A stretch of DNA of 43,002 nt from a virus. Lineage: Duplodnaviria > Heunggongvirae > Uroviricota > Caudoviricetes. The stretch lies in IMG/VR virus record IMGVR_UViG_2565956721_000005; one strand, given 5' to 3'. The notes below the pieces were generated by a model. The model did no database searches and was not told the origin of the DNA. It saw only the letters and a program-made list of their open reading frames with translations. A program made the translations under genes and the position numbers. This document shows, piece after piece, positions 1,286 through 38,469 of this stretch (position 1 is the stretch's first letter; every line of letters starts with the position of its first letter).

Positions 1286-1510
1286 AACCGCAGCACGTTC
1301 TTGCTTAAGACGTGCTGCGGCATAATCCCAATGATTACTCCCTGACAGGGTTCGTAGGCCACTCAATATCAGGTGCAGTTGATGTATCAACACGGTTCAG
1401 CAACACCCGATACTTTTTCCAGGCTTCCAGCAATGAGGTTTCTTCCTCCGTTGCAATTTCCAGATCTGCAGCATCCTGAAGCGGCGCAATATGCTCACTG
1501 GCTACCTGCA
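1286..1510. repeat. direct repeat copy 2 (tfa 3' end plus hairpin ccgcagcacgt...acgtgctgcgg)
   Basis: Sequence identity with 236-460; perfect inverted repeat at 1288-1320. Confidence 0.8.
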
Positions 1511-1919
1511 TCAGGTTGTTTTTTGTTTCTTCCGCCTCCCGGATCCGGAACATTTTTTCTGCTTCCGTATCCTTCACCCAGGCTGTGCCGTTCCACTTCT
1601 GAAACTCCCCTTCCGGCGATAACCAGGTAACATTTTCCGGTAACGGACCGAGTTCAGAAATAAATAACTCGTCCCCTGACGCTACGTCATAAACCGTTTT
1701 ACCCCGATGGTCTTCAACGAGATGCCACGATGCCTCATCACTGTTGAAAACAGCCACAAAGCCAGCAGGAATATCTGGTGGTGCAATATCGGTACTGTTT
1801 GCTGGCAGACCTGTATGAGGCGGAATATATGCGTCACCTTCACCAATAAATTCATTAGTGCCGGCCAGCAGATTATAAATTTTTATGGTCCGTGCTTGTT
1901 CACTCATTCTGAATGCCAT
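1335..1919 (-). CDS. tfa: tail fibre assembly protein Tfa
   Basis: 194 aa, [24 protein letters not shown]... near-identical to recalled lambda Tfa; ATG overlaps stf stop (TAATG). Confidence 0.9.
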
Positions 1920-4894
1920 TATGCAAGCCTCACAATATAGTTAAATGCGATGTTTTTGACGGTGTTTTCCGCGTTACCAGCAGCGTTAACGGTGATGGTG
2001 TGTCCATGTGAACCAATCGCAACGGAGTGCGTATGCGCACCAATACCTACAGTATGTGCATGTGCGCCAGAACTTGCTGCAGTACCAGACAGCGAGTGGG
2101 TATGAGCACCTGCTGACTGTGTCTGAATACGTTGATAATACGATCTACGGGAAGAAGTCCCCGGGCTTACTTGATACTGTGAATCCTGGACATAAGTGAA
2201 CCCACCGCCATCATAAAATGCTAACGCAGAACCGCCGCCTCCTGGCCAACGAATACCATTACCATGAGTATGATCACCGGCAGACCCCGTAGAGCCACTC
2301 AGACTGTGCGTATGCGCCCCGGTGTTATTCGTGGATTTGGTTCCGTAATCAAACGACGATGTGTTTTTCGTCCCCAAATCCGTACTGGATGCGCTGGCGC
2401 TGTGGGTGTGCGATTTAATGCCGTCCTGTTCCTGAGACAATACGGCACGACCACTGGCGGGTTTGCCCTTAATCGTCCAGCCACGCATATCAGGGATCAC
2501 GCCTGACGGATAAGCGGCTGCAAGTTTCGGGTATGCAGATTTGTCAAAAGTCTGCCCCTGCATCAGGGCATAGCCAGACGGAACGGTATCTGATGGCCAC
2601 GGGATTGGTGCGCCAGGCGGATAAAACTGCTCTGATGGCGTATAGAGTGAATAAACTGTACCGTCCGTTAACCCTTCCGGCTTATTAGCAGAATATGCTG
2701 GTGACGTATGAATCGTCACGCTGGCATTACTGGTATAATCCCATTGAATATTTACACCAGTCGCATAATTTCCGATTGCAACGTAAATATCGTAAGTATC
2801 ACCAGATGTATTGACCCAGGCAAAATTTGTAAACCCTGTCGATGTGCGCTGCCATAAAGCACCAGTAATCCCCTTCGGATTACCATTACCTGCACGCAAA
2901 ACAAGTTCAGATATACCTGCCTGTTGAGGTGACCCCACGTTAAATCCCGCACCACCAATCAACGTAATTGAAACAACAGAACTCGCCTGTGGCATGGTTA
3001 CCGTTGCTAATTTGAACCAACCAGCACCACCGCTGAATGACATTGTTGTTGAGTTAAGCGTACCAATATCTTTCGGCGTCAGTGTTATATCCGCTGAAAG
3101 CGCCTTACCATTCACCTTACGGGCAGAAGGTACCCGACCATTCGCATTATTATTAGCTGCTTTCACTGCTTTCGGTGTCGCGGCAAGCGTTTCAGATGCG
3201 CTGTTGGTTGCACTACTGAGCTGGACAATTCCTTTTTGTGCTGTCGTAGCGTCCTGAGCAGTATATTTCCCGTTAGCAAGGTCATAGGCTGCCTTTACCG
3301 ACTTTGGCGTTGCCGCCAGCATTTCAGATGTGCTGTTGGTCGCGTTGCTAAGCTGAACTATCCCTTTCTGTGCTGTCGTTGCATCCTGTGCGGTGTATTT
3401 CCCGTTAGCCAGCTCATACGCGGCCTTAACGGCTTTTGGCGTTGCCGCCAGTGACTCGGAAGTGCTGTTAGTCGCACTGCTGAGCTGTACTATCCCCTTT
3501 TTCGTCGTGCTCGCATCCTCAAGCGCCACGGCGGATGCAATATCCTCTGCCCGTTTTGCCGCTGTCTCAGCGCGCGTTGCCGCGGATTCCGCCGTACTTT
3601 TGCTCTGAGCTGCCGCCGTCGCACTGCCAGCTGCCTCTGTCGCCTTCGTGGATGCCGTCGTGGCGCTGCCCTTTGCTGCTGACGCCTGTCTGGTCGCCTC
3701 ATCTTTTGAAGCAGACGCAGATGATGCCGATGACGCCGCCGAACTGGCGGACGATGCGGCAGCCGTTTTTGAGGATTCTGCGCTGGTTTCCGACGCTTTC
3801 GCGTTCGTCTTGGATGTCTTCGCTGCGGAAGCAGACCTCGCTGCTGCGCTGGCCTGTACAGCGGCTTCGCCAGCCTTCGTTGTGGCTGTTGAAGCAGACG
3901 ATGCAGCACTTTCTGCCGATTTTCCGGCGGCGGTGGCACTGGCTGAGGCCTGCCCGGCACTTGTTGACGCGGCACTGGCAGATAATGCAGCCGCTGTTTT
4001 TGAGTCTGCCGCAGCTGAGGCGCTCTGTCCCGCTGCCGTTTCAGAAGACCTGGCGTTCGTCTCGGACGTTTTTGCCGCCTTCGCAGAATTTGCTGCCGCC
4101 GTTGCCGAGGAAGCTGCGCTGCTGGCGCTCGAGGCTGCGTTCGTTTCTGATGATTTTGCCGCCTCTTTTGAAGCCGACGCATCCCGTGCTGAAGTGGCTG
4201 CTTCTGACGCTTTCGTGGTCGCGGTGGATGCAGAAGTGGCTGCTGATTGTTGTGACGCTGCGGCATTCGTTTCTGACGTTTTCGCGGCACTGGCGCTGGT
4301 AGCTGCCGCGCTTTTTGATGACTCTGCAGCAGCAGCACTTTTTGCTGCTTCACGGGCCTTTGTCGATGCCGCTCCTGCGCTGGAAGACGCTGACTGAGCC
4401 GACGACGCGGCCTGTCCGGCTGACGTGCTGGCGGCACGTGCTGAGGCTGCAGCATCGGTTGCATGAGTTGCCGCCTCGCTGGCTGATGCACTGGCATCGC
4501 TGGCTGATTTTTTCGCGGCTGCCGTATTCTGTGCAACCGCGGAGGCGTTACGTGACACCTCTTCCACCATCTGCTCAAAGCGGCGCAGTGCCTCCGGTCG
4601 GACATCATCCTCCGTCATGGCACCGAGAAAATCATTCAGCGTACCTGGTCTGGAACCTTCATAGACGGTAATGGTCCCGGCATGTGAAGGCGGAAAACCT
4701 TCAACCAGCAGGGTGACGCTGTACTGACCATGCTCAACATCCATGCTGTAACGCCCGGCTTCATCCGGATTTTCAGAGGCCACCGTGTTCACCACCACCG
4801 TGCTGCTGGTCCGTCTGGCCTTCAGCACAATGGTGCAGTTCTGTACTGGTTTTCCTGTGCCATCTTTAAGCACGCCAGAAATTTTTACTGTCAT
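1919..4894 (-). CDS. stf: side tail fibre protein Stf
   Basis: 991 aa; N-terminus [20 protein letters not shown]..., Ala/Ser-rich central repeats and C-terminus ...[31 protein letters not shown] match recalled lambda Stf. Confidence 0.9.
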
Positions 4895-8514: not shown

Positions 8515-11084
8515 CGTCCACCTCCGGAGAACAGTCCACCATCACGCATCTGTGTCTGAATTTCATCACGGGCACCCTTGCGGGCCATGTCATACACCGC
8601 CTTCAGAGCAGCCGGACCTATCTGCCCGTTCGTGCCGTCGTTGTTAATCACCACATGGTTATTCTGCTCAAACGTCCCGGACGCCTGCGACCGGCTGTCA
8701 GCCAGACTGCCCGGTGTACCGACATAACCACCGGTGGCATAGCCGCGCATCAGCCGATAGAGATTCCCCACGCCAATCCGGCTGGTTGCCTCCTTTGTGA
8801 AGACAAATTCACCACGGTGAACAATCCCCGCTGGCTCATATTTGCCGCCGGTTCCCGTAAATCCTCCGGTTGCAAAATGGAATTTCGCCGCAGCGGCCTG
8901 AATGGCTGTACCGCCTGACGCGGATGCGCCGCCACCAACAGCCCCGCCAATGGCGCTGCCGATACTCCCGACAATCCCCACCATTGCCTGCTTAAGCAGA
9001 ATTTCTGTCATCATGGACAGCACGGAACGGGTGAATCCCCGCCAGTTCTGTTCGCTGCCGGTCAGCATCGCCGCCATATTCTGTGCAATACCGTCAAAGG
9101 TCTGCGTGGCCACACTTTTAACCTGCGAAAAACTGTCCGTCGCACTTTCCGCCCACTCTCCCCAGCCGGACTTCATCCCGGCCATCCAGCTTCCACGAAG
9201 CTGCTCCTCCGCAGACCAGGTGTTCTTCAGTGCCGATGTGGCCTTCGCCAGCGCAGCCGGATTATCACCGTACACCTCACGAAGGCGCTGCTCTTCCGAC
9301 TCCCGCTGCGCCTGACGGTCGGTGAGGCCGCGGGCTTTTGCGCTGATTGCCGCCTGCTTCGCGCTTTGCTGCTGTTCAAACCGCGCCGCCTGCTGTGCCA
9401 GCTCATTCAGCCGCTTCTGGTGTTCAATCTTGTCTCCCAGCTCAGCCAGCTGGCGTTTGTACTCCAGCGTCTCTTTCTCATGAGCCAGCAGGGATTTTTC
9501 CTGCTCAGATAACTGCCGTTTCGTGGCGGCCTCTTTCAGGACCACATACTGACTTTCCGCTTCCCATAAATCCCGGCGCTGCTGGCTGATTTTCTCATTC
9601 ACACCGCTGTGTTTTTCCAGCGTCCTGAGCTCGGTTTCAAGCGCCAGCAGGGCTGCATGCGCCCGGTCTTCCTGGCGCTCACCGGCAGACACCTTCACAC
9701 CTGACGGCTTTTTCAGCGTCGATTCATAATCCTTTTTTGCCGACGCCATCAGCGTGTTGTAATCCGCCTGCAGGATTTTTCCGTCTTTCAGGGCCTTATT
9801 CAGCTCTTTCTGACGGGCGGTATATTTATCCAGCGGCGTCTGCAGGCGCTCATACGCCTTCTGCGCCTCTCCGGTATACTTCAGCTGTGACGACTCACGC
9901 TCAGCCCTGTCCCTTGCCGCCAGTTCACCGGCTTTTTCCATATCCGACTGCAGCGTGGCCGCTGCCAGACCCAGACGGGCATTTTCCCGGTCATCCCATG
10001 CCCCCTGAAGGTTCGCACGAAAAGAGGAGGTCTTTCCCCGGCGCTGGCTCCGGCTCTGGTACCACTGCCATTTTTTATCCGCCTCATCAAATGCCTTCTG
10101 CGCACTGGCGAGCATATCCGCTGAGGATTCCGGACGACCGATATCCAGAATGGCATCCCACATCGATTTGAATGCCTTCCCTGTTTTATCCGCCCAGGTC
10201 TCCAGTGTTCCCATGTTTTCTTTCAGGCGACGGGTCTGCTCATCAAAGCCTTTCGTGGCGATATCGTTCGCCGCCTGCAATGCCCCGGCCTCGTCTCCGG
10301 AACGCTGCAGCTGTGCAACATACGCAATCTGCTCTGCCGTCACGTTACGGAACTGGCGCGCCATCGCCATCAGTCCCGACGTCGGGTCAGTGGTCAGCTT
10401 CCCGAAGGCTTCAGCGACTTTATCCACCTCCACACCGGATGCAGACGCAAAACGCGCGACACTCTGGTTGATGGCATCAAACTGTTCACCACCACGCACA
10501 CCGGCATTCACCAGGGCTGCCAGTGACTCTCTCGCCTGGTTAAACGTCAGCCCTGCTGCCTGCCCGGCTCTTGAGAGCGTCAGCATACGATCGGCAGTCA
10601 GTCCGGCCTGATTGCCGGAAAGGACCAGCGTTTTATTAAATTCTGAAAGCGTGGCGTCGCCCTGGTACCAGGCGTACGCCAGCGCACCTGTCGCCACCGC
10701 CAGCGAGGTGACCCCGACCATCGGCAGGGTGATCGCACCGGCAAGCCCCCTGAACATGGGGATCATCCCGCCGAAGGAGTCCTTCACCTGACCGCCCTGT
10801 TGCAGCAGGATCAACCAGGGATTCTGACCACCGGCAAGCTGCGTGGCGATATCCGTAAACTGTGCGGGCAGGGTTCGCATGGCCGCTTTATACTGCCCGA
10901 CGGAAATCCCGGCTTTTTGTGCAGCCAGCGCCTGGCGGCTCAGGCCCTGTTCAACAGCACTGGCGGTTTTTCTGGCGTCGGTATCCAGACCTGAAAAATG
11001 ACGCCTTACCCGGCTCATCTGCTCATCGAAACGGACAGCATCCAGACTCAGGTCAATAACAAGATCACCAACCGGCTGGGACAT
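8511..11084 (-). CDS. H: tail tape measure protein H
   Basis: 857 aa; N- and C-termini match recalled lambda H (MxxPVGDLVIDLSLDA... ...QMRDGGLFSGGGR). Confidence 0.9.
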   Translation of the reverse strand: MSQPVGDLVIDLSLDAVRFDEQMSRVRRHFSGLDTDARKTASAVEQGLSRQALAAQKAGISVGQYKAAMRTLPAQFTDIATQLAGGQNPWLILLQQGGQVKDSFGGMIPMFRGLAGAITLPMVGVTSLAVATGALAYAWYQGDATLSEFNKTLVLSGNQAGLTADRMLTLSRAGQAAGLTFNQARESLAALVNAGVRGGEQFDAINQSVARFASASGVEVDKVAEAFGKLTTDPTSGLMAMARQFRNVTAEQIAYVAQLQRSGDEAGALQAANDIATKGFDEQTRRLKENMGTLETWADKTGKAFKSMWDAILDIGRPESSADMLASAQKAFDEADKKWQWYQSRSQRRGKTSSFRANLQGAWDDRENARLGLAAATLQSDMEKAGELAARDRAERESSQLKYTGEAQKAYERLQTPLDKYTARQKELNKALKDGKILQADYNTLMASAKKDYESTLKKPSGVKVSAGERQEDRAHAALLALETELRTLEKHSGVNEKISQQRRDLWEAESQYVVLKEAATKRQLSEQEKSLLAHEKETLEYKRQLAELGDKIEHQKRLNELAQQAARFEQQQSAKQAAISAKARGLTDRQAQRESEEQRLREVYGDNPAALAKATSALKNTWSAEEQLRGSWMAGMKSGWGEWAESATDSFSQVKSVATQTFDGIAQNMAAMLTGSEQNWRGFTRSVLSMMTEILLKQAMVGIVGSIGSAIGGAVGGGASASGGTAIQAAAAKFHFATGGFTGTGGKYEPAGIVHRGEFVFTKEATSRIGVGNLYRLMRGYATGGYVGTPGSLADSRSQASGTFEQNNHVVINNDGTNGQIGPAALKAVYDMARKGARDEIQTQMRDGGLFSGGGR

Positions 11085-22010: not shown

Positions 22011-22244
22011 ATGTCAACGAAGAACAGAACCCGCAGAACAACAACCCGCAACATCCGCTTTCCTAACCAAATGATTGAACAAATTAACATCGCTCTTGTT
22101 CAAAAAGGGTCCGGGAATTTCTCAGCCTGGGTCATTGAAGCCTGCCGCCGGAGACTGTGCTCAGAAAAAAGAGTTTCGCCTGAAGCAAACAAAGAAAAGA
22201 GTGACATTACTGAATTGCTCAGAAAACAGGTCAGACCAGATTGA
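22011..22244 (+). CDS. small basic protein, possibly ribbon-helix-helix (YlcI/DUF3950-like, from memory)
   Basis: 77 aa MSTKNRTRRTTTRNIRFPNQMIEQINIALVQKGSGNFSAWVIEACRRRL; opposite strand to phage late genes. Confidence 0.5.
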   Translation: MSTKNRTRRTTTRNIRFPNQMIEQINIALVQKGSGNFSAWVIEACRRRLCSEKRVSPEANKEKSDITELLRKQVRPD

Positions 22245-22301
22245 AGCAATTTAGATAATCGTGCAGACTACCCCCCCTCATATCACATGGAAGGTACTAC
22301 A

Positions 22302-22712
22302 ATGGCTCAGATTGCCATTTTTAAACAAATATTCGATAAAGTGCGAAATAATTTAAACTATCACTGGTTTTATTCTGAACTAAAACGTCACAATGTCTCA
22401 CATTACATTTACTATTTAGCCACAGAGAATATTCATCTTGTTCTTGAAAACGATAATACGGTTTTAATAAAAGGACAGGGTAAGGTTGTAAATGTAAGAT
22501 TTTCAAAAAATAAATGCCTTATAGAAGCCACCTTAAAAGGATTCAAATCAGGAGAGTTATCATTTTACGAATACAGGAAAAATCTTGCTACAGCAGGGGT
22601 TTTCAGATGGATTACAAATATCCACGAAAACAAAAGGTATTACTATACCTTTGATAATTCATTACTCTTTACTGAGAACATTCAGAACACTACACAAATA
22701 TTTCCGCACTAA
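22302..22712 (+). CDS. hypothetical protein (YbcV/DUF1398-like, from memory); AT-rich moron
   Basis: ORF with GGAAGG RBS before MAQIAIFKQ; AT-rich; ORF track gives 22287 as an alternative start. Confidence 0.5.
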
Positions 22713-23019: not shown

Positions 23020-23484
23020 TTATCTGAGGCATTGCTCTCGAATGTATAGCTGTGCCCCTTCAAGTTGTTTTTGCATTATTATCAGTCGCGCTCTGAGGGT
23101 GAAATAATCCCGTTCAGCGGTGTCTGCCAGTCGGGGGGAGGCTGCATTATCCACGCCGGAGGCGGTGGTGGCTTCACGCACTGACTGACAGACTGCTTTG
23201 ATGTGCAACCGACGACGACCAGCGGCAACATCATCACGCAGAGCATCATTTTCAGCTTTCGCATCAGCTAACTCCTTCGTGTATTTTGCATCGAGCGCAG
23301 CAACATCACGCTGACGCATCTGCATGTCAGTAATTGCCGCGTTCGCCAGCTTCAGTTCTCTGACATTTTTGTCGCGCTGGGCTTTGTAGGTAATGGCGTT
23401 ATCACGGTAATGATTCAGCCCCAGACTAAGCGCACCACAGGCCACCAGCAGGGCAATGATGACCACGCACAGTACGCGGTTCAT
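23020..23484 (-). CDS. Rz: i-spanin Rz
   Basis: 154 aa ...[78 protein letters not shown]... near-identical to lambda Rz. Confidence 0.95.
23082..23264 (-). CDS. Rz1: o-spanin Rz1 (lipoprotein embedded in Rz, +1 frame)
   Basis: 60 aa [58 protein letters not shown] matches lambda Rz1. Confidence 0.9.
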
Positions 23485-23782: not shown

Positions 23783-24316
23783 TTATCTGTCGATACCCCA
23801 GCACGCCAGCGCGCTCTCCTGGTCACGACGGGATACCTGACCGTAGCAGTTGTTTGAACGAATACGGCAGTCTCTGCCACCGTCCTTAATCCACCAGCGA
23901 ATCGCCTCACACGCTCCCCTGCGATCACCTGCATTAATTCGTTTATAAAACGTCGACGGGAAACACTTACCGGGACCAATGTTGTACGGACAGAATGACG
24001 CGATCCCCGCTTTCTGGGGTTCGCTCAATGGCACTTTGATGTTTTTCTCCACCCATGCCAGCGCCTTATCACGCTCAATGGCGTTGACCTGGTCGCATTT
24101 TTCCTTCGACAGTTTCATACCGGGAAAAACGGGTTTTCCATCCACCATCGTGGCCCCCCGACAGATGGTCCAGTTGCCGGAACCATCGCGGTATGCCGTA
24201 GTGTGGTTACCCTCTTTTTCATCCAGAAACTGGTCAAGTATCTGAGGAGCTGATGCGCCTGCTCCAATCAGCGCCAGAACTGCAGCTGACAGGCCGTATT
24301 TGATTTTTGCGTTCAT
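23783..24316 (-). CDS. R: SAR endolysin (T4-lysozyme-like, GH24) with N-terminal signal-anchor-release domain
   Basis: 177 aa; Gly/Ala-rich weakly hydrophobic N-terminus then E...D...T catalytic spacing; matches recalled RrrD/P21-type lysozymes. Confidence 0.9.
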   Translation of the reverse strand: MNAKIKYGLSAAVLALIGAGASAPQILDQFLDEKEGNHTTAYRDGSGNWTICRGATMVDGKPVFPGMKLSKEKCDQVNAIERDKALAWVEKNIKVPLSEPQKAGIASFCPYNIGPGKCFPSTFYKRINAGDRRGACEAIRWWIKDGGRDCRIRSNNCYGQVSRRDQESALACWGIDR

Positions 24317-24421
24317 GGATATTTATCAGGATTTATCGGTTTCTGAACCCTGGATATGTTTATCTGTCCCGGCCTGTTGAATCAGGCGGGGAAAAGGTAA
24401 AGACAATCAAGAGGATTATTT

Positions 24422-24694
24422 ATGGACAATAGCACCATTTCTCTACAGGAGTTGCTCGACTGCATTTCCAGGCTTCGGGATGATGTAAATGCCCTCACTG
24501 TTGCATTTTCACATCTGGCCTTATCAATTCCCAGGGAGCAAATGCTGCCAACGCTGGCATCCATTCATTTTGAATCACGCAACCCCAAATGGTCCCAGGA
24601 ACAACAAAATTCTTTCAAGTGGCTGGCGGCATTGCTGGAAGAAAATTATGCTGGCAAAACTACCATTTCGGCGGAGTCTTCAGGGAACCAGTAA
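24422..24694 (+). CDS. hypothetical 90-aa protein on the strand opposite the lysis genes
   Basis: AAGAGGA RBS 6 nt before ATG; plausible helical protein; overlaps 3' end of the ydfR-like gene by 35 nt. Confidence 0.4.
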   Translation: MDNSTISLQELLDCISRLRDDVNALTVAFSHLALSIPREQMLPTLASIHFESRNPKWSQEQQNSFKWLAALLEENYAGKTTISAESSGNQ

Positions 24695-25004
24695 TCCTTC
24701 CCGGTAGCTTTCCTTTGTAGGTTATCCATACATTCTGCGCCTCTAAAATTACGGGGCGCTTTTCCGGCGACTGCTCATCCCCTTCACATAACCCGGCAGC
24801 GACATCCAGGAAGACCTGTCTGATGCTCCTTCTGGCCGCTGCCTCATAAAACTCCAGCGCAGCACCTTCAACACGGTCCAGCGAGATGTCCAGGTCAAAA
24901 ATTTCACCGTCAAAGCGTTCTTTGTCCTGTAATGCTAAAGTTACCGTAACTTTATTCTCAAAATTGCGGATCCCTTTCACAATCAGTTCATAGTTTTGAG
25001 TCAT
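24660..25004 (-). CDS. lysis-cassette protein of unknown function (YdfR/DUF1327-like, from memory)
   Basis: 114 aa, start 4 nt after holin stop with RBS GGGGAGAG inside the holin 3' end. Confidence 0.55.
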   Translation of the reverse strand: MTQNYELIVKGIRNFENKVTVTLALQDKERFDGEIFDLDISLDRVEGAALEFYEAAARRSIRQVFLDVAAGLCEGDEQSPEKRPVILEAQNVWITYKGKLPGRITGSLKTPPKW

Positions 25005-25008
25005 TGAA

Positions 25009-25224
25009 TTACTCTCCCCGTGCCGCCTTACGACGGTCCTCTCTGATTTTGAAATACAGGTTAGTCAGATATGTCAGCAGCCCAAACAGCAGACTCCCCA
25101 GCACGCCTATTGCCGCCCACTGAGACGGGGAAACCCTGTCCAGCAACTGCAGGAACCAGTAGCCCGTTCCCACCGCTGACGTGGTGTATGACACACCTGT
25201 TGTGATTTTTTCCATCTGGTCCAT
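25009..25224 (-). CDS. S: pinholin (S21-like class II holin) with dual-start motif MDQM
   Basis: 71 aa ...[46 protein letters not shown] matches recalled phage 21 S; ORF track start at 25329 is an upstream extension. Confidence 0.9.
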
Positions 25225-25942: not shown

Positions 25943-25954
25943 GCCCACAAGAAA

Positions 25955-26190
25955 ACCCCTCCGGAGAGGGGCTAAAGCCGCGTATCTGTATCATCATGCA
26001 CATGGTGCCGGGTGCCTCCCGGTGAGTTCAGCCCGGTGCCACTAAACCCGCGTCATTCTCGTTTTGATAATCAGAGATTATACCGTCACCAGTCGCCCCT
26101 CCGCTCAGGGGGATTCACCATGCGAAATTTTTTTAACAAATGCCCAGTCTGACAGGCAACTGTCAACTTACTGAATTGTGAGCAACATAG
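25955..26190 (-). repeat. direct repeat unit 1 (about 215 bp) with conserved GC hairpins, ending in a minus-strand intrinsic terminator (25955-25978)
   Basis: Shares long identical blocks with 26440-26655; terminal CCCCTC-TCCG-GAGGGG followed by TTTTCTT. Confidence 0.75.
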
Positions 26191-26255: not shown

Positions 26256-26439
26256 AGCGGTCATGTGATGCCGGTTTCCCGGTAACTCAGCACCGGTATC
26301 TGAGTCAACGTTTTCTCTACTGGGTCATTTCCGATACGCCCTGCCTGCTGACAGGCTTTCATCACATCTGAAAATATAGCACCCTGACTGATACTGTAGT
26401 ACCTAAGGTTCCAGAAACTGTGATGTATCCGGCACAGAA

Positions 26440-26655
26440 AAGCCCCTCCGGAGAGGGGCTGGAGAGTGGCGCTATGTGCCATTGCATGGTGCCGGGTGCC
26501 TCCCGGTGAATTCAGTACCAGCACCTGAATCCGCGATTATCCCATATACCTACTCGCTGATTGCCCCTCCGCACAGGGGGATTCACCATGCCAGTTTCTT
26601 TTAACAAACTCCCCGCAAACCAGACAACAGTCAACCGCCTGAATTGTGAGACATT
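26440..26655 (-). repeat. direct repeat unit 2, paralog of 25955-26190, ending in a minus-strand intrinsic terminator (26443-26466)
   Basis: Conserved blocks GGTGCCGGGTGCCTCCCGGTGA, CCCCTCCGC.CAGGGGGATTCACCATG, CAGTCAAC..CTGAATTGTGAG; terminal CCCCTCTCCGGAGGGGCTTTTCT. Confidence 0.75.
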
Positions 26656-26695: not shown

Positions 26696-26772
26696 TGGCG
26701 CGTTGTACTGGATTCGAACCAGTGACCGATTGCTTAGAAGGCAATTGCTCTGTCCGGCTGAGCTAACAACGC
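26696..26772 (-). tRNA. argO: tRNA-Arg, anticodon UCU (reads AGA/AGG); argO-like
   Basis: Cloverleaf read by hand: acceptor GCGTTGT, anticodon loop CTTCTAA, T-arm ACTGGTTCGAATCCAGT, 3' GCCA. Confidence 0.85.
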
Positions 26773-26785
26773 AGGATACAGATAA

Positions 26786-26862
26786 TGGACCGCCTTCGGG
26801 GACCCGAACTCCGCGCAACCAGCTTCGAAGGCTGGCGCTCTTTCCTGATGAGCTAATGGCGG
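26786..26862 (-). tRNA. argN: tRNA-Arg-like, anticodon UCG; non-canonical T-loop (TTCGGGT) and one acceptor-stem mismatch
   Basis: Cloverleaf read by hand: anticodon stem CCAGC/GCTGG, loop CTTCGAA, D-loop with GG, 3' ...GGTCCA. Confidence 0.6.
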
Positions 26863-26869
26863 TATGTGA

Positions 26870-26945
26870 TGGTGGCCCTTGCTGGATTTGAACCAGCGAC
26901 CTGGCGATTATGAGTCGCTCGCTCTCACCACTGAGCTAAAGGGCC
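26870..26945 (-). tRNA. ileZ: tRNA-Ile2, anticodon CAU (lysidine type, reads AUA); ileZ/ileX-like
   Basis: GGCCCTTTAGCTCAGTGGTGAGAGC...CTCATAA...GGTTCAAATCCAGCAAGGGCCACCA; near-identical to recalled E. coli ileX. Confidence 0.85.
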
Positions 26946-31315: not shown

Positions 31316-31471
31316 TTACTCCTCAGGTTCGTAAACTGTGAAGACAGCGACCTCCGTCTGGCCGGTTCGGATTCGTACCTCGCAGAGGTCTTTCCTCGTT
31401 ACCAGTGCCGTCACTATGACGGTTAAACAGATGACGATCAGGGCGATTAACATCGCCTTTTGCTGCTTCAT
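31316..31471 (-). CDS. hokD: Hok-family type I toxin (HokD/RelF-like)
   Basis: 51 aa MKQQKAMLIALIVICLTVIVTALVTRKDLCEVRIRTGQTEVAVFTVYEPEE; hairpins at the mRNA 3' end and in the upstream leader as in hok loci. Confidence 0.9.
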   Translation of the reverse strand: MKQQKAMLIALIVICLTVIVTALVTRKDLCEVRIRTGQTEVAVFTVYEPEE

Positions 31472-31686
31472 AGCCTGCTTCTCCTTGCCTTTCGGCACGT
31501 AAGAGGCTAACCTAGATTTGCCGTTCATAGATTGAGCCTCAGATTAATGTTAAGCGTCTTGCAGGACGCGTAATATTAACTGGGGCTTTTCTCTATCTGC
31601 CTTTGGTGTTCATGCCTGAGGCAGATAGCCTCAAGCACCCGCAGCAATTCTACTTAACTCCCGTCACCTCGCCAATATAAAATCAA

Positions 31687-38413: not shown

Positions 38414-38469
38414 TTTCTGGTGACGTTTGGCGGTATCAGTTTTACTCCGTGACTGCTCTGCCGCCCTTT
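38414..38469 (+). ncRNA. dicF: DicF small RNA (ftsZ-targeting sRNA of the dicB operon)
   Basis: TTTCTGGTGACGTTTGGCGGTATCAGTTTTACTCCGTGACTGCTCTGCCGCCC followed by TTTTT; matches recalled E. coli DicF. Confidence 0.85.

What the first reader, a model, noticed from the sequence alone, without database searches (positions are those of the whole stretch)
24317..24694. Plus-strand 90-aa ORF with strong RBS embedded in the minus-strand lysis cassette
Between the ydfR-like gene and the endolysin start there is a 340-bp gap containing a plus-strand ORF with an AAGAGGA RBS at correct spacing. It is antisense to the lysis transcript and overlaps the ydfR-like 3' end, so it could be a lysogeny-expressed moron or an antisense element modulating lysis.
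Basis: seen in the sequence. Interest (0 to 1): 0.45.

Follow-up and report, generated by a model that had tools for sequence, protein, structure and literature searches.

The report
Antisense accessory gene inside prophage lysis cassette
The 90-codon reverse-oriented reading frame between the prophage's ydfR gene and its lysozyme gene is a real, conserved accessory gene (a "moron") of unknown function, and its upstream region is a worn-down copy of a control element that many unrelated small prophage genes in enteric bacteria share.

Summary
Window 24422-24694 (+) is a 90-aa ORF with an AAGAGGA ribosome-binding site 6 nt upstream. It lies in the 343-bp gap between ydfR (DUF1327) and a lysozyme whose N-terminus looks SAR-type, and it overlaps the ydfR 3' end by 35 nt.

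It is a real gene:
- RefSeq already calls it (WP_001351274.1, "hypothetical protein"; UniRef "Ybl58"; PHROG 2411).
- About 19% of complete E. coli genomes carry it.
- It is intact in 72 of 73 related loci.
- It is under purifying selection (pN/pS 0.32, against 1.1-1.7 in three of the five other frames).
- It is absent from K-12 Qin, where ydfR abuts the lysozyme gene.
- In phage 2H10 an unrelated ORF sits at the same site.

The protein is an acidic 10-kDa three-helix protein. It belongs to an unnamed Enterobacterales family with phage-borne and chromosomal members.

Its upstream 48 nt match a conserved "head" element. That element precedes at least 21 unrelated small-ORF families in Enterobacterales prophages. 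None of 93 cassettes has same-strand genes predominating on either flank. The window copy keeps the promoter-like part and a hairpin but has lost the distal hairpin/pseudoknot.

Best reading: an autonomous, probably lysogen-expressed moron. Its function is unknown, and a lysis-specific antisense role is not supported.

The parts
24317..24363 (+). Promoter-like 'head' block, the 5' half of the conserved cassette head. It starts directly after the R start codon on the opposite strand.
   Evidence: An nhmmer profile built from 98 head elements gives a single hit in the whole 43-kb window, at 24316-24363 (+), E = 0.0039, model positions 32-79. The same block heads a different ORF at the same junction in phage 2H10.
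24324..24332 (+). TATCAGGAT, the window's copy of the most conserved upstream motif of the head (consensus TATCAGGaTGTTg). The consensus equals the IHF consensus WATCAR-N4-TTR; the window copy matches it only imperfectly.
   Evidence: Exact WATCARNNNNTTR occurs at a fixed position in 45 of 98 elements, against a chance expectation of 0.002 per sequence. IHF binding itself is an inference from the published consensus and was not tested.
24355..24360 (+). TATGTT, a -10-like hexamer (TAnnnT).
   Evidence: A TAnnnT hexamer lies exactly 6 nt upstream of the conserved UCAGCC in 73 of 98 elements. The window hexamer aligns to it. The generic sigma-70 scan found no strong + strand promoter, so any promoter here is weak or activator-dependent.
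24368..24391 (+). Leader hairpin CCCGGCCUG-UUGAAU-CAGGCGGGG. It is the positional equivalent of the covarying hairpin P2 of the head element and probably sits at the 5' end of the ORF90 mRNA.
   Evidence: The fold is (z = -2.0 for 24317-24440). Covariance model R1 aligns P2 to 24369-24390, but the score is only 11.8 bits, E = 0.35. The lower stem is broken in the second major haplotype. P2 in the full elements has 6 of 8 pairs with compensatory changes.
24409..24415 (+). Shine-Dalgarno sequence AAGAGGA, 6 nt before the ATG.
   Evidence: Read from the sequence. It is invariant in all haplotypes, although neighbouring bases vary.
24422..24694 (+). ORF90 coding sequence (Ybl58 / WP_001351274.1 / PHROG 2411): 90 aa, 10.1 kDa, pI 4.95, three helices with a disordered tail.
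24660..24694 (.). 35-nt convergent overlap of the ORF90 and ydfR 3' ends.
   Evidence: The alignment with 2H10 shows homology resuming at about 24668, so the junction of the cargo-specific segment lies inside this overlap.
24737..24763 (+). Terminator-like hairpin GCGCCUC-UAAAAUUAC-GGGGCGC followed by UUUU, 42 nt after the ORF90 stop and inside the ydfR coding sequence. There is no counterpart on the - strand.
   Evidence: 7 of 73 loci carry a C-to-A change that breaks one pair. The generic scan missed it because of the 9-nt loop and the 4-T tail.
24660..25004 (-). ydfR-like gene (DUF1327, 114 aa). This is context. Its C-terminal third differs from K-12 YdfR.
23783..24316 (-). Lysozyme R (rrrQ-like; N-terminus looks SAR-type). 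This is context.
   Evidence: 'SAR-type' is my reading of the N-terminal sequence, not a tool result.

Best explanation
ORF90 is a genuine protein-coding 'moron': a small autonomous transcription unit inserted head-on into the late (lysis) operon of a lambdoid prophage.

What is shown:
- It encodes a conserved, purifying-selected, 10-kDa acidic protein predicted to form three helices.
- It is an insertion/replacement polymorphism at the R/ydfR junction.
- The 48 nt upstream are homologous to the promoter-like part of a portable 'head' that precedes many unrelated small ORFs in Enterobacterales prophages. In none of the 93 cassettes surveyed do same-strand genes predominate on either flank.

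What is inferred:
- Transcription starts at about 24365-24369, from a weak or activator-dependent promoter (TATGTT -10; upstream TATCAGGAT motif, possibly an IHF site).
- The mRNA begins with a stabilising hairpin, is translated from the strong AAGAGGA site, and ends at the hairpin-UUUU at 24737-24763.
- The gene faces the late operon. It would therefore be expressed in the lysogen, and possibly early after infection. Converging Q-antiterminated late transcription would then shut it off.
- The product has no membrane segment, signal peptide, enzyme motif or DNA-binding motif. It most likely acts by binding a host or phage protein, as a lysogenic-conversion or regulatory factor rather than a lysis component.

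The actual target and phenotype are unknown.
For: Real gene:
- PGAP calls it.
- PHROG 2411, E = 5.5e-55.
- 61 close homologues at 71-97% identity, mostly 90 aa.
- Internally intact in 72 of 73 loci; variable sites by codon position 11:11:24; pN/pS 0.32.
- Distant homologues at 25-38% identity keep the same length and helix pattern.
- AlphaFold pLDDT 80, three helices.

Moron features:
- Absent from K-12 Qin and from several phages with the same flanks.
- A different cargo at the same site in 2H10.
- Still linked to the ydfR side when the downstream lysis genes are replaced, in phage phiSTEC1575-Stx2k.
- GC 0.47 against 0.53.
- Present in at least 1052 of 5426 complete E. coli genomes and in the isolated or induced phages Chlobot and phiSTEC1575-Stx2k.

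Own regulatory head:
- A single nhmmer hit in the window, exactly upstream.
- The Citrobacter homologue has a significant leader hit, 30 bits, E = 9e-6.
- Distant homologues have the full head.
- TAnnnT lies at a fixed 6 nt before the conserved leader start.

Orientation rule: of 93 cassettes, 51 have both flanks on the opposite strand and none has a same-strand majority on either flank.

Terminator-like hairpin on the + strand only.

Not lysis-specific: homologues lie between tail genes M and L, beside a terminase module, next to an autotransporter gene, and in Serratia-type chromosomes between dinI and bssS.
Against: - No transcription, translation or phenotype data were available, so expression in the lysogen is inferred.
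- The generic sigma-70 scan finds no good + strand promoter.
- The nhmmer hit to the head is weak (E = 0.004), and the covariance-model hit to the leader is not significant on its own (E = 0.35).
- The window copy lacks the distal hairpin/pseudoknot of the full head.
- The terminator-like hairpin lies in ydfR coding sequence, so its conservation cannot be attributed to termination. It is also weakened in 7 of 73 loci.
- Only 26 of 86 full cassettes show a terminator by the same simple criterion.
- pN/pS of 0.32 is a moderate constraint.
- Sequence and fold searches give no functional lead.
Confidence: 0.75

Rival explanations
1. The functional product is an antisense RNA, or the act of convergent transcription, rather than the protein. 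A + strand transcript complementary to the ydfR-R intercistronic part of the late mRNA would trigger RNase III cleavage or transcriptional interference. That would lower or delay endolysin/spanin expression, acting as a safety catch or a lysis timer.
For: - The unit is fully antisense to 24367-24660 of the late transcript and to the ydfR 3' end.
- Cassettes of this class are never co-oriented with the surrounding operon, which could reflect selection for interference.
- The closest subfamily (E. coli and Citrobacter) sits next to lysis genes in both genera.
Against: - The substitution pattern is that of a protein, and the protein family is conserved down to 25% identity, where no DNA similarity remains.
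- Family members occur in a tail operon and at chromosomal loci without lysis genes.
- The predicted transcript does not cover the R ribosome-binding region (24317-24335).
- Lysis cassettes without the insert are common (K-12 Qin and several phages), so the insert is not part of the core lysis mechanism.
Confidence: 0.1
2. ORF90 encodes a lysis-cassette accessory protein. For example, it could be a cytoplasmic inhibitor or chaperone of the endolysin, the holin or YdfR that prevents accidental lysis in lysogens.
For: - It lies between ydfR and R, is co-inherited with the 114-aa ydfR variant, and overlaps its 3' end.
- The Citrobacter homologue lies directly upstream of a holin gene.
Against: - More distant homologues are not near lysis genes.
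- The Q-to-terminase region is a general hot spot for cassettes carrying unrelated cargo.
- The convergent partner genes of different family members are unrelated to each other.
- There is no transmembrane segment of the kind seen in the antiholins I know of; I judged this from the sequence by eye and from the all-helical model, with no TM-prediction tool.
Confidence: 0.1
3. The frame is a decaying or non-functional remnant: an ORF that stays open only because the cassette is young and spreads with the prophage.
For: - The head is degenerate. The distal hairpin/pseudoknot is lost, and the lower stem of the remaining hairpin is broken in one haplotype group.
- The family has a narrow host range at high identity.
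- Some truncated or frameshifted copies exist in databases (entries of 46-62 aa and 94 aa).
Against: - 19 distinct coding haplotypes have about 11% synonymous divergence but only 3.5% non-synonymous.
- 72 of 73 loci are internally intact.
- The SD is invariant while its surroundings vary.
- The gene is present in viable phages and in 19% of complete E. coli genomes.
Confidence: 0.05

Closest known systems
Morons of lambdoid phages as defined for HK97/HK022 (Juhala, Hendrix and colleagues, from memory), with lambda bor as the nearest example
   Same: - It is an extra gene that is present in some related phages and absent from others.
- It is embedded in the late region and has a lower GC content.
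- It has its own promoter-like and terminator-like signals.
- Like bor, it sits next to the lysis genes and is oriented against them.
   Different: - The product is not a lipoprotein or membrane protein like Bor or Lom.
- It belongs to a different, uncharacterised family.
- Its upstream region is a recognisable copy of a head shared by many unrelated cassettes. To my knowledge this has not been described for the classic morons.
PHROG 2411 / UniRef 'Ybl58' / RefSeq WP_001351274.1
   Same: Full-length match to the PHROG profile (E = 5.5e-55). The exact sequence was found in the protein collection (seen on at least 1000 contigs) under these names.
   Different: These are labels without function. 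The wider family found here (Citrobacter, Serratia, Sodalis, Chania, Gibbsiella and related genera; 81-106 aa) has no Pfam, NCBIfam or PADLOC model.
Small prophage-encoded proteins of E. coli cryptic prophages, such as YnfU (ECs_2282-type zinc ribbon) and Lar
   Same: They are small and are encoded against the direction of the neighbouring late or lysis genes. K-12 ynfU lies on the + strand just upstream of essQ. An ECs_2282/Lar-like zinc-ribbon protein is one of the cargo families behind the same head element.
   Different: There is no sequence relationship to ORF90. The K-12 ynfU region gave no head-element hit.
Integron gene cassettes (analogy only)
   Same: Many unrelated short ORFs are each attached to one conserved non-coding module and exchanged at fixed sites. 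Here the R/ydfR junction holds ORF90, the 2H10 ORF, or nothing.
   Different: - No integrase, attC-like recombination site or array was found.
- The conserved module lies upstream of the ORF and looks like a promoter plus a leader RNA, not a recombination site.
- Cassettes occur singly.

Membership tests
Moron (autonomous accessory transcription unit in a phage late operon) | Present in some and absent from other closely related phage genomes at the same position | tested here: met
   K-12 Qin has ydfR overlapping rrrQ with no insert. Several vB_Eco phages match only the two flanks, 222 bp apart. 2H10 has a different insert.
Moron (autonomous accessory transcription unit in a phage late operon) | Own promoter | tested here: inconclusive
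   There is no strong sigma-70 consensus. However, 24316-24363 matches the promoter-like block of the head profile (E = 0.004, the only hit in the window), with TATGTT aligned to the conserved TAnnnT. No transcript data were available.
Moron (autonomous accessory transcription unit in a phage late operon) | Own terminator | tested here: inconclusive
   A 7-bp GC-rich hairpin plus UUUU lies at 24737-24763 on the + strand only. It lies within ydfR coding sequence, has a long loop and a short tail, and is weakened in 7 of 73 loci.
Moron (autonomous accessory transcription unit in a phage late operon) | Base composition different from the surrounding genes | tested here: met
   GC is 0.46-0.47 for the cargo against 0.53 (R), 0.55 (holin) and 0.55 (late region).
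Moron (autonomous accessory transcription unit in a phage late operon) | Expressed from the repressed prophage | not testable with these tools
   This needs strand-specific RNA-seq, TSS mapping or a reporter fusion in a lysogen.
PHROG 2411 / Ybl58 protein family | Full-length profile match | tested here: met
   E = 5.5e-55, residues 1-90 against profile positions 1-90 of 90. The exact sequence was found in the protein collection, on at least 1000 contigs.
Conserved cassette 'head' element (defined here) | Upstream block TATCAGG...CCTGG-TAnnnT | tested here: met
   nhmmer hit at 24316-24363, model positions 32-79, E = 0.0039, single hit in 86 kb searched.
Conserved cassette 'head' element (defined here) | Leader start UCAGCC followed by the covarying hairpin P2 | tested here: inconclusive
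   The window has UCUGUC followed by a 7-of-8-pair hairpin at the expected place, but the covariance-model score is 11.8 bits, E = 0.35.
Conserved cassette 'head' element (defined here) | Distal hairpin P3 with loop GGGAUGGCUGAUUA, complementary to the 5' UCAGCC | tested here: not met
   The motif is absent from 24392-24421. It is degenerate in the Citrobacter homologue and complete upstream of the distant homologues P0063, P0066 and P0073.
cis-antisense regulatory RNA of a lysis gene | Non-coding: conservation explained by RNA sequence or structure, not by a reading frame | tested here: not met
   There is codon-position bias and in-frame purifying selection. Protein-level homologues exist without DNA similarity. 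No Rfam family matches.
Known anti-phage defence proteins (PADLOC) and anti-silencing protein Mip (NCBIfam NF041858) | Profile match above threshold | tested here: not met
   PADLOC gave no hit at E <= 1. Mip scored 12.6 bits against a cut-off of 50, E = 0.08.

The most novel reading that the evidence does not exclude
ORF90 may be one worn-down member of an undescribed system of portable mini-cassettes in Enterobacterales prophages. A conserved head of about 130 nt is attached to interchangeable small ORFs. It precedes at least 21 unrelated families (median 79 aa), including DUF1883, an ECs_2282/Lar-like zinc ribbon and the ORF90 family. The cassettes are never co-oriented with the host phage operon.

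The head consists of:
- an outward-facing terminator;
- an IHF-consensus motif;
- a TAnnnT -10-like hexamer;
- a structured leader.

The leader has a covarying 5' hairpin. It also has a GGAGG/CCUCU hairpin that resembles an SD/anti-SD duplex, whose loop GGCUGA can pair with the 5' UCAGCC to form a pseudoknot.

The leader would be a new cis-regulatory RNA class (it is not in Rfam 15), and the cargos would be a pool of lysogen-expressed small effectors.
Probability: 0.35. Interest if true: 0.7.

Novelty: new member of a known kind. Interest (0 to 1): 0.45.

Why it matters
About one complete E. coli genome in five carries this gene, including UPEC, APEC and STEC strains and Stx-converting phages, yet nothing is known about it. 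Showing that it is a real, autonomous, selected gene makes it a concrete target for studies of lysogenic conversion or phage defence. It also corrects the idea that the ydfR-R gap is 'intergenic'.

The finding exposes two further points. The R/ydfR junction is a cassette-exchange site. The gene's upstream region also belongs to a widespread, unannotated head element with a covarying leader RNA, shared by many unrelated small prophage ORFs. If that element proves to be a common regulatory switch, it would give one handle on the expression of a whole class of 'dark' small prophage proteins. It would also give a search key for finding them, since several are not annotated, such as the 2H10 ORF.

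Tried and rejected
- **Function by sequence.** Pfam, NCBIfam and PADLOC gave nothing for ORF90 or for eight distant homologues. The weak hits (Mip, L29, TBC1D14) are below every threshold and were rejected.
- **Two-gene module.** I tested whether ORF90 and its convergent overlapping partner form a conserved toxin-antitoxin-like pair. The partners (ydfR, and the 63-aa, 71-aa and 85-aa ORFs) are unrelated apart from 12 residues encoded by the overlap itself. Rejected.
- **LexA/SOS control.** This was suggested by the dinI neighbour in Serratia and a CTG...CAG motif. The spacing is wrong (CTG-N9/N5-CAG), and the only exact CTG-N10-CAG is the stem of hairpin P2 in L090. Rejected.
- **One superfamily of cargos.** I tested whether all cargo families behind the head are distant relatives of ORF90. 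hhalign probabilities were at most 14%, and the 2H10 ORF scored 0.2%. Not supported.
- **Known RNA family.** There was no Rfam hit at gathering threshold on ten element-bearing loci, and only noise at E <= 10.
- **Alignment-based locus search.** The search with alignment A3 failed for lack of a conserved peptide stretch. P0063 gave no viral loci.
- **Literature.** Searches for ydfR plus lysis terms, DUF1327, WP_001351274, ybl58, the motif string, and morons in opposite orientation gave nothing relevant.
- **A chance hit.** The covariance-model hit at window 9439-9529 lies inside an 857-aa gene and is taken as chance.

Full report
**1. The observation**

The sequence shows an ATG at 24422 and a stop ending at 24694 on the + strand (90 codons). 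AAGAGGA lies at 24409-24415, six bases before the ATG.

The surrounding genes are all on the - strand:
- a P21-type holin (25009-25224);
- a DUF1327/ydfR-like gene (24660-25004, 114 aa);
- a phage lysozyme whose N-terminus looks SAR-type by eye (23783-24316);
- Rz (23020-23484) and an embedded Rz1-like ORF (23082-23264; assigned by position, not searched).

The gap between the ydfR stop and the R start codon is 343 bp. ORF90 overlaps the ydfR 3' end by 35 nt.

**2. Is it a gene?**

- RefSeq's pipeline already annotates the frame (WP_001351274.1, UTI89_RS07155, 'hypothetical protein'). UniRef carries the name 'Ybl58'.
- A 511-bp query spanning the ORF and both junctions is at least 80% covered in 1052 of 5426 complete E. 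coli genomes.
- The ORF also occurs in the isolated phage Chlobot and in the Stx2k-converting phage phiSTEC1575.
- The protein matches PHROG 2411 (unknown function) over its full length, E = 5.5e-55. It has no Pfam, NCBIfam or PADLOC match.
- I took 80 IMG/VR loci and aligned the 73 that are collinear over 811 bp; they form 38 haplotypes. Of these, 70 keep all 90 codons, 2 have lost only the last codon, and 1 has an internal stop.
- Variable sites fall 11:11:24 on codon positions 1, 2 and 3.
- pN/pS is 0.32 in the ORF90 frame, comparable with ydfR at 0.38. It is 1.1-1.7 in three other frames. The antisense frame that shares wobble positions gives 0.27, but it is open for only 60 codons and has no SD.
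- The SD is invariant while adjacent bases vary.

I conclude that this is a protein-coding gene under moderate purifying selection.

**3. It is an insertion/replacement polymorphism**

In K-12 Qin, ydfR (103 aa) overlaps the rrrQ start directly. Homology with the window breaks exactly at the R start codon and resumes inside ydfR. Several vB_Eco phages match only the two flanks.

Phage 2H10 has, at the same junction, the same first ~46 nt after the R start codon. These are followed by a different leader and an unannotated, unrelated 86-88-aa + strand ORF. Homology with the window resumes at about 24668.

The cargo-specific segment in the window is therefore about 24363-24667. The junction is a site where cassettes are exchanged.

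In phiSTEC1575-Stx2k the holin-ydfR-ORF90 block is followed by a different lysis cassette, so ORF90 travels with the ydfR side. The cargo GC content is 0.46-0.47, against 0.53-0.55 for its neighbours.

**4. The protein and its family**

An exhaustive profile search found distant relatives at 25-38% identity and 81-106 aa. They share the motif pattern ELL..I..LR..VN.L..AFSYLAF....E.....I..L.(F/Y)ES.N. A second profile search widened the family to Citrobacter, Serratia, Sodalis, Chania, Gibbsiella, Chimaeribacter and Acerihabitans.

The genomic contexts are varied:
- antisense between tail genes M and L of a prophage;
- beside a terminase module;
- upstream of a holin gene in a Citrobacter prophage;
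- next to an AIDA-type autotransporter gene in E. coli;
- chromosomal in Sodalis ligni;
- in a contig with the Serratia-type gene order, between dinI and bssS;
- downstream of a DUF1883 gene in a stress-gene neighbourhood.

The family is therefore not tied to lysis. The convergent partners that overlap the 3' ends of different members are unrelated to each other, so there is no conserved two-gene module.

**5. The upstream region belongs to a shared 'head'**

Three distant homologues from different contexts share a hairpin with loop (G)AUGGCUGAUUA(A) and different stems just before the start codon.

Almost all hits are embedded in a conserved element of about 130 nt. The element is followed by 83 different small ORFs (median 79 aa) that fall into 21 unrelated clusters. 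Only one cluster is the ORF90 family. The others include DUF1883 and an ECs_2282/Lar-like zinc ribbon, and most have no Pfam or NCBIfam match.

The consensus of the element reads as follows:
- a hairpin preceded by an A-run, which on the opposite strand is a terminator;
- TATCAGGaTGTTg, which is an exact match to the IHF consensus WATCAR-N4-TTR in 45 of 98 copies at a fixed position;
- CCTGG-TAnnnT;
- exactly 6 nt later (73 of 98 copies), UCAGCCC;
- hairpin P2;
- a linker;
- hairpin P3 (GGAGG / loop GGGAUGGCUGAUUA / CCUCU);
- AAGGA and the start codon.

P2 covaries strongly. Six of its 8 pairs show changes on both sides. Over all 19 pairs of the tested structure, 96% of cells are paired, against 29-50% when the 3' partners are slid by 1-3 columns. 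The loop GGCUGA is complementary to the 5' UCAGCC. Both were fixed by my selection of sequences, so that pairing is untested.

The element has no Rfam match. In species-representative genomes, about 35 of 120 17-mer hits are true elements. Every one whose record title was shown is from Enterobacterales: Xenorhabdus, Photorhabdus, Pantoea, Enterobacter, Yersinia, Serratia, Providencia and others. The complete element occurs in only 47 of 5426 E. coli genomes and is never annotated.

Of 93 distinct cassettes, 51 have both 2.5-kb flanks coding on the opposite strand. None has a same-strand majority on either side. Two annotated E. coli examples show the same arrangement near lysis and terminase genes.

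**6. How the window relates to the head**

A profile of 98 elements gives a single hit in the whole window, at 24316-24363 (+), E = 0.0039. It covers the TATCAGG...CCTGG-TATGTT block directly upstream of ORF90. The same profile hits the 2H10 junction and the Citrobacter homologue.

A covariance model of the leader aligns P2 to the hairpin at 24368-24391, but it scores only 11.8 bits (E = 0.35). The P3/pseudoknot part is absent from the window. The Citrobacter homologue has an intact P2 and a degenerate P3 (30 bits, E = 9e-6).

The series runs from the full head (distant homologues) to the half-decayed head (Citrobacter) to the reduced head (E. coli). This supports common descent of head plus cargo. 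It also means the window copy probably keeps the promoter and a 5' hairpin but not whatever regulation P3 provides.

**7. Mechanism**

Shown:
- a coding, selected, mobile unit;
- in antisense orientation;
- with a promoter-like head, a strong SD, and a + strand hairpin-UUUU at 24737-24763.

Inferred:
- transcription starts at about 24365-24369;
- the gene is expressed in the lysogen, perhaps IHF-assisted;
- converging late transcription silences it;
- the product acts as a soluble protein that binds a partner.

A specific role in lysis, whether as an antisense RNA or as an accessory protein, is not supported by the family's distribution. It has not been excluded for this subfamily.

**8. Comparison and novelty**

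The unit meets the comparative criteria of a moron (call numbers are in the membership table). It most resembles lambda bor in position and orientation, but it encodes a different, uncharacterised cytoplasmic protein.

The gene itself is already annotated as hypothetical, so the finding is a new member of a known kind.

Three things appear to be new:
- the wider protein family;
- the cassette-exchange site at R/ydfR;
- the shared head with its covarying leader. This is the most interesting of the three, and I found it neither in Rfam 15 nor in the literature searched.

For the window copy the head evidence is weak (E = 0.004 and 0.35), and all statements about expression remain untested.

Noticed in passing
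L086 4840-5000; L090 4840-5000; L093 660-820; L099-L218 (IMG/VR); L228 5001-5130; L229 5001-5127: A conserved 'head' element of about 130 nt lies upstream of at least 21 unrelated small-ORF families in Enterobacterales prophages. None of 93 cassettes has same-strand genes predominating on either flank. Its parts are an outward-facing terminator, an IHF-consensus motif, TAnnnT, a UCAGCC leader start, a covarying hairpin P2, and a GGAGG/CCUCU hairpin with loop GGGAUGGCUGAUUA. It is not in Rfam 15 and is not annotated in RefSeq.
   Followed up: partly
L083 (phage 2H10, LR595862.1) 1552-1926: An unannotated 86-88-aa + strand ORF (MDYTNLPKQTFADLIALRQ...) has the same head start as the window. It occupies the R/ydfR junction in place of ORF90 and overlaps the 3' end of a 183-aa ydfR variant. 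It is unrelated to ORF90 (hhalign probability 0.2%).
   Followed up: partly
window 24695-24805 and L002 (K-12 Qin) 4055-4366: YdfR/DUF1327 proteins are mosaic. The N-terminal ~67 residues are shared, but the C-terminal parts differ (103 aa in K-12, 114 aa here, 183 aa in 2H10; PHROG profiles of 105-296 aa). The differences are at least partly because the reading frame runs into whatever cassette lies downstream.
   Followed up: partly
window 24317-24335 (- strand view): The lysozyme gene has no obvious Shine-Dalgarno sequence upstream of its ATG, and its translation-initiation region coincides with the conserved TATCAGGAT motif of the head on the other strand. In K-12 Qin, R is translationally coupled to ydfR (ATGA overlap). 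Here that coupling is lost.
   Followed up: no
L095 5001-5279 and L096 1463-1741: A chromosomal member of the ORF90 family (92 aa) lies between dinI and bssS, 123 nt downstream of dinI, with no head element. Close relatives are named from many Serratia species, which suggests a core-genome origin for the phage-borne genes.
   Followed up: partly
L225 3043-4321: In a metagenomic Enterobacterales-like chromosome, one head element precedes three tandem small genes: DUF1883, a 57-aa ORF and a 106-aa ORF90-family member. They lie next to a DUF892 (yciE/F-like) stress gene.
   Followed up: no
window 1378-1576, 25943-26152, 26430-26620, 26699-26945, 31466-31640, 38415-38466: Rfam hits elsewhere in the window are IS009, two STnc100 copies, three tRNA genes just upstream of the lysis region (RefSeq names the UTI89 copies tRNA-Arg, tRNA-Arg and tRNA-Ile), a sok antitoxin RNA (hok/sok-type) and DicF. 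This is a Qin-like lambdoid prophage layout.
   Followed up: no
window 22287-22712 and about 22011-22244: ynfO-like and DUF1398 (ydfO-like) genes are also on the + strand, against the late operon, between the terminase genes and Rz. They are further antisense accessory genes in the same prophage, and no head element was detected there.
   Followed up: no
L264, L272, L279 (Xenorhabdus ehlersii NZ_RAQI01000001.1); L263 (Photorhabdus temperata); L116, L192: Some genomes or contigs carry two or three head elements, so cassettes can accumulate in one replicon.
   Followed up: no
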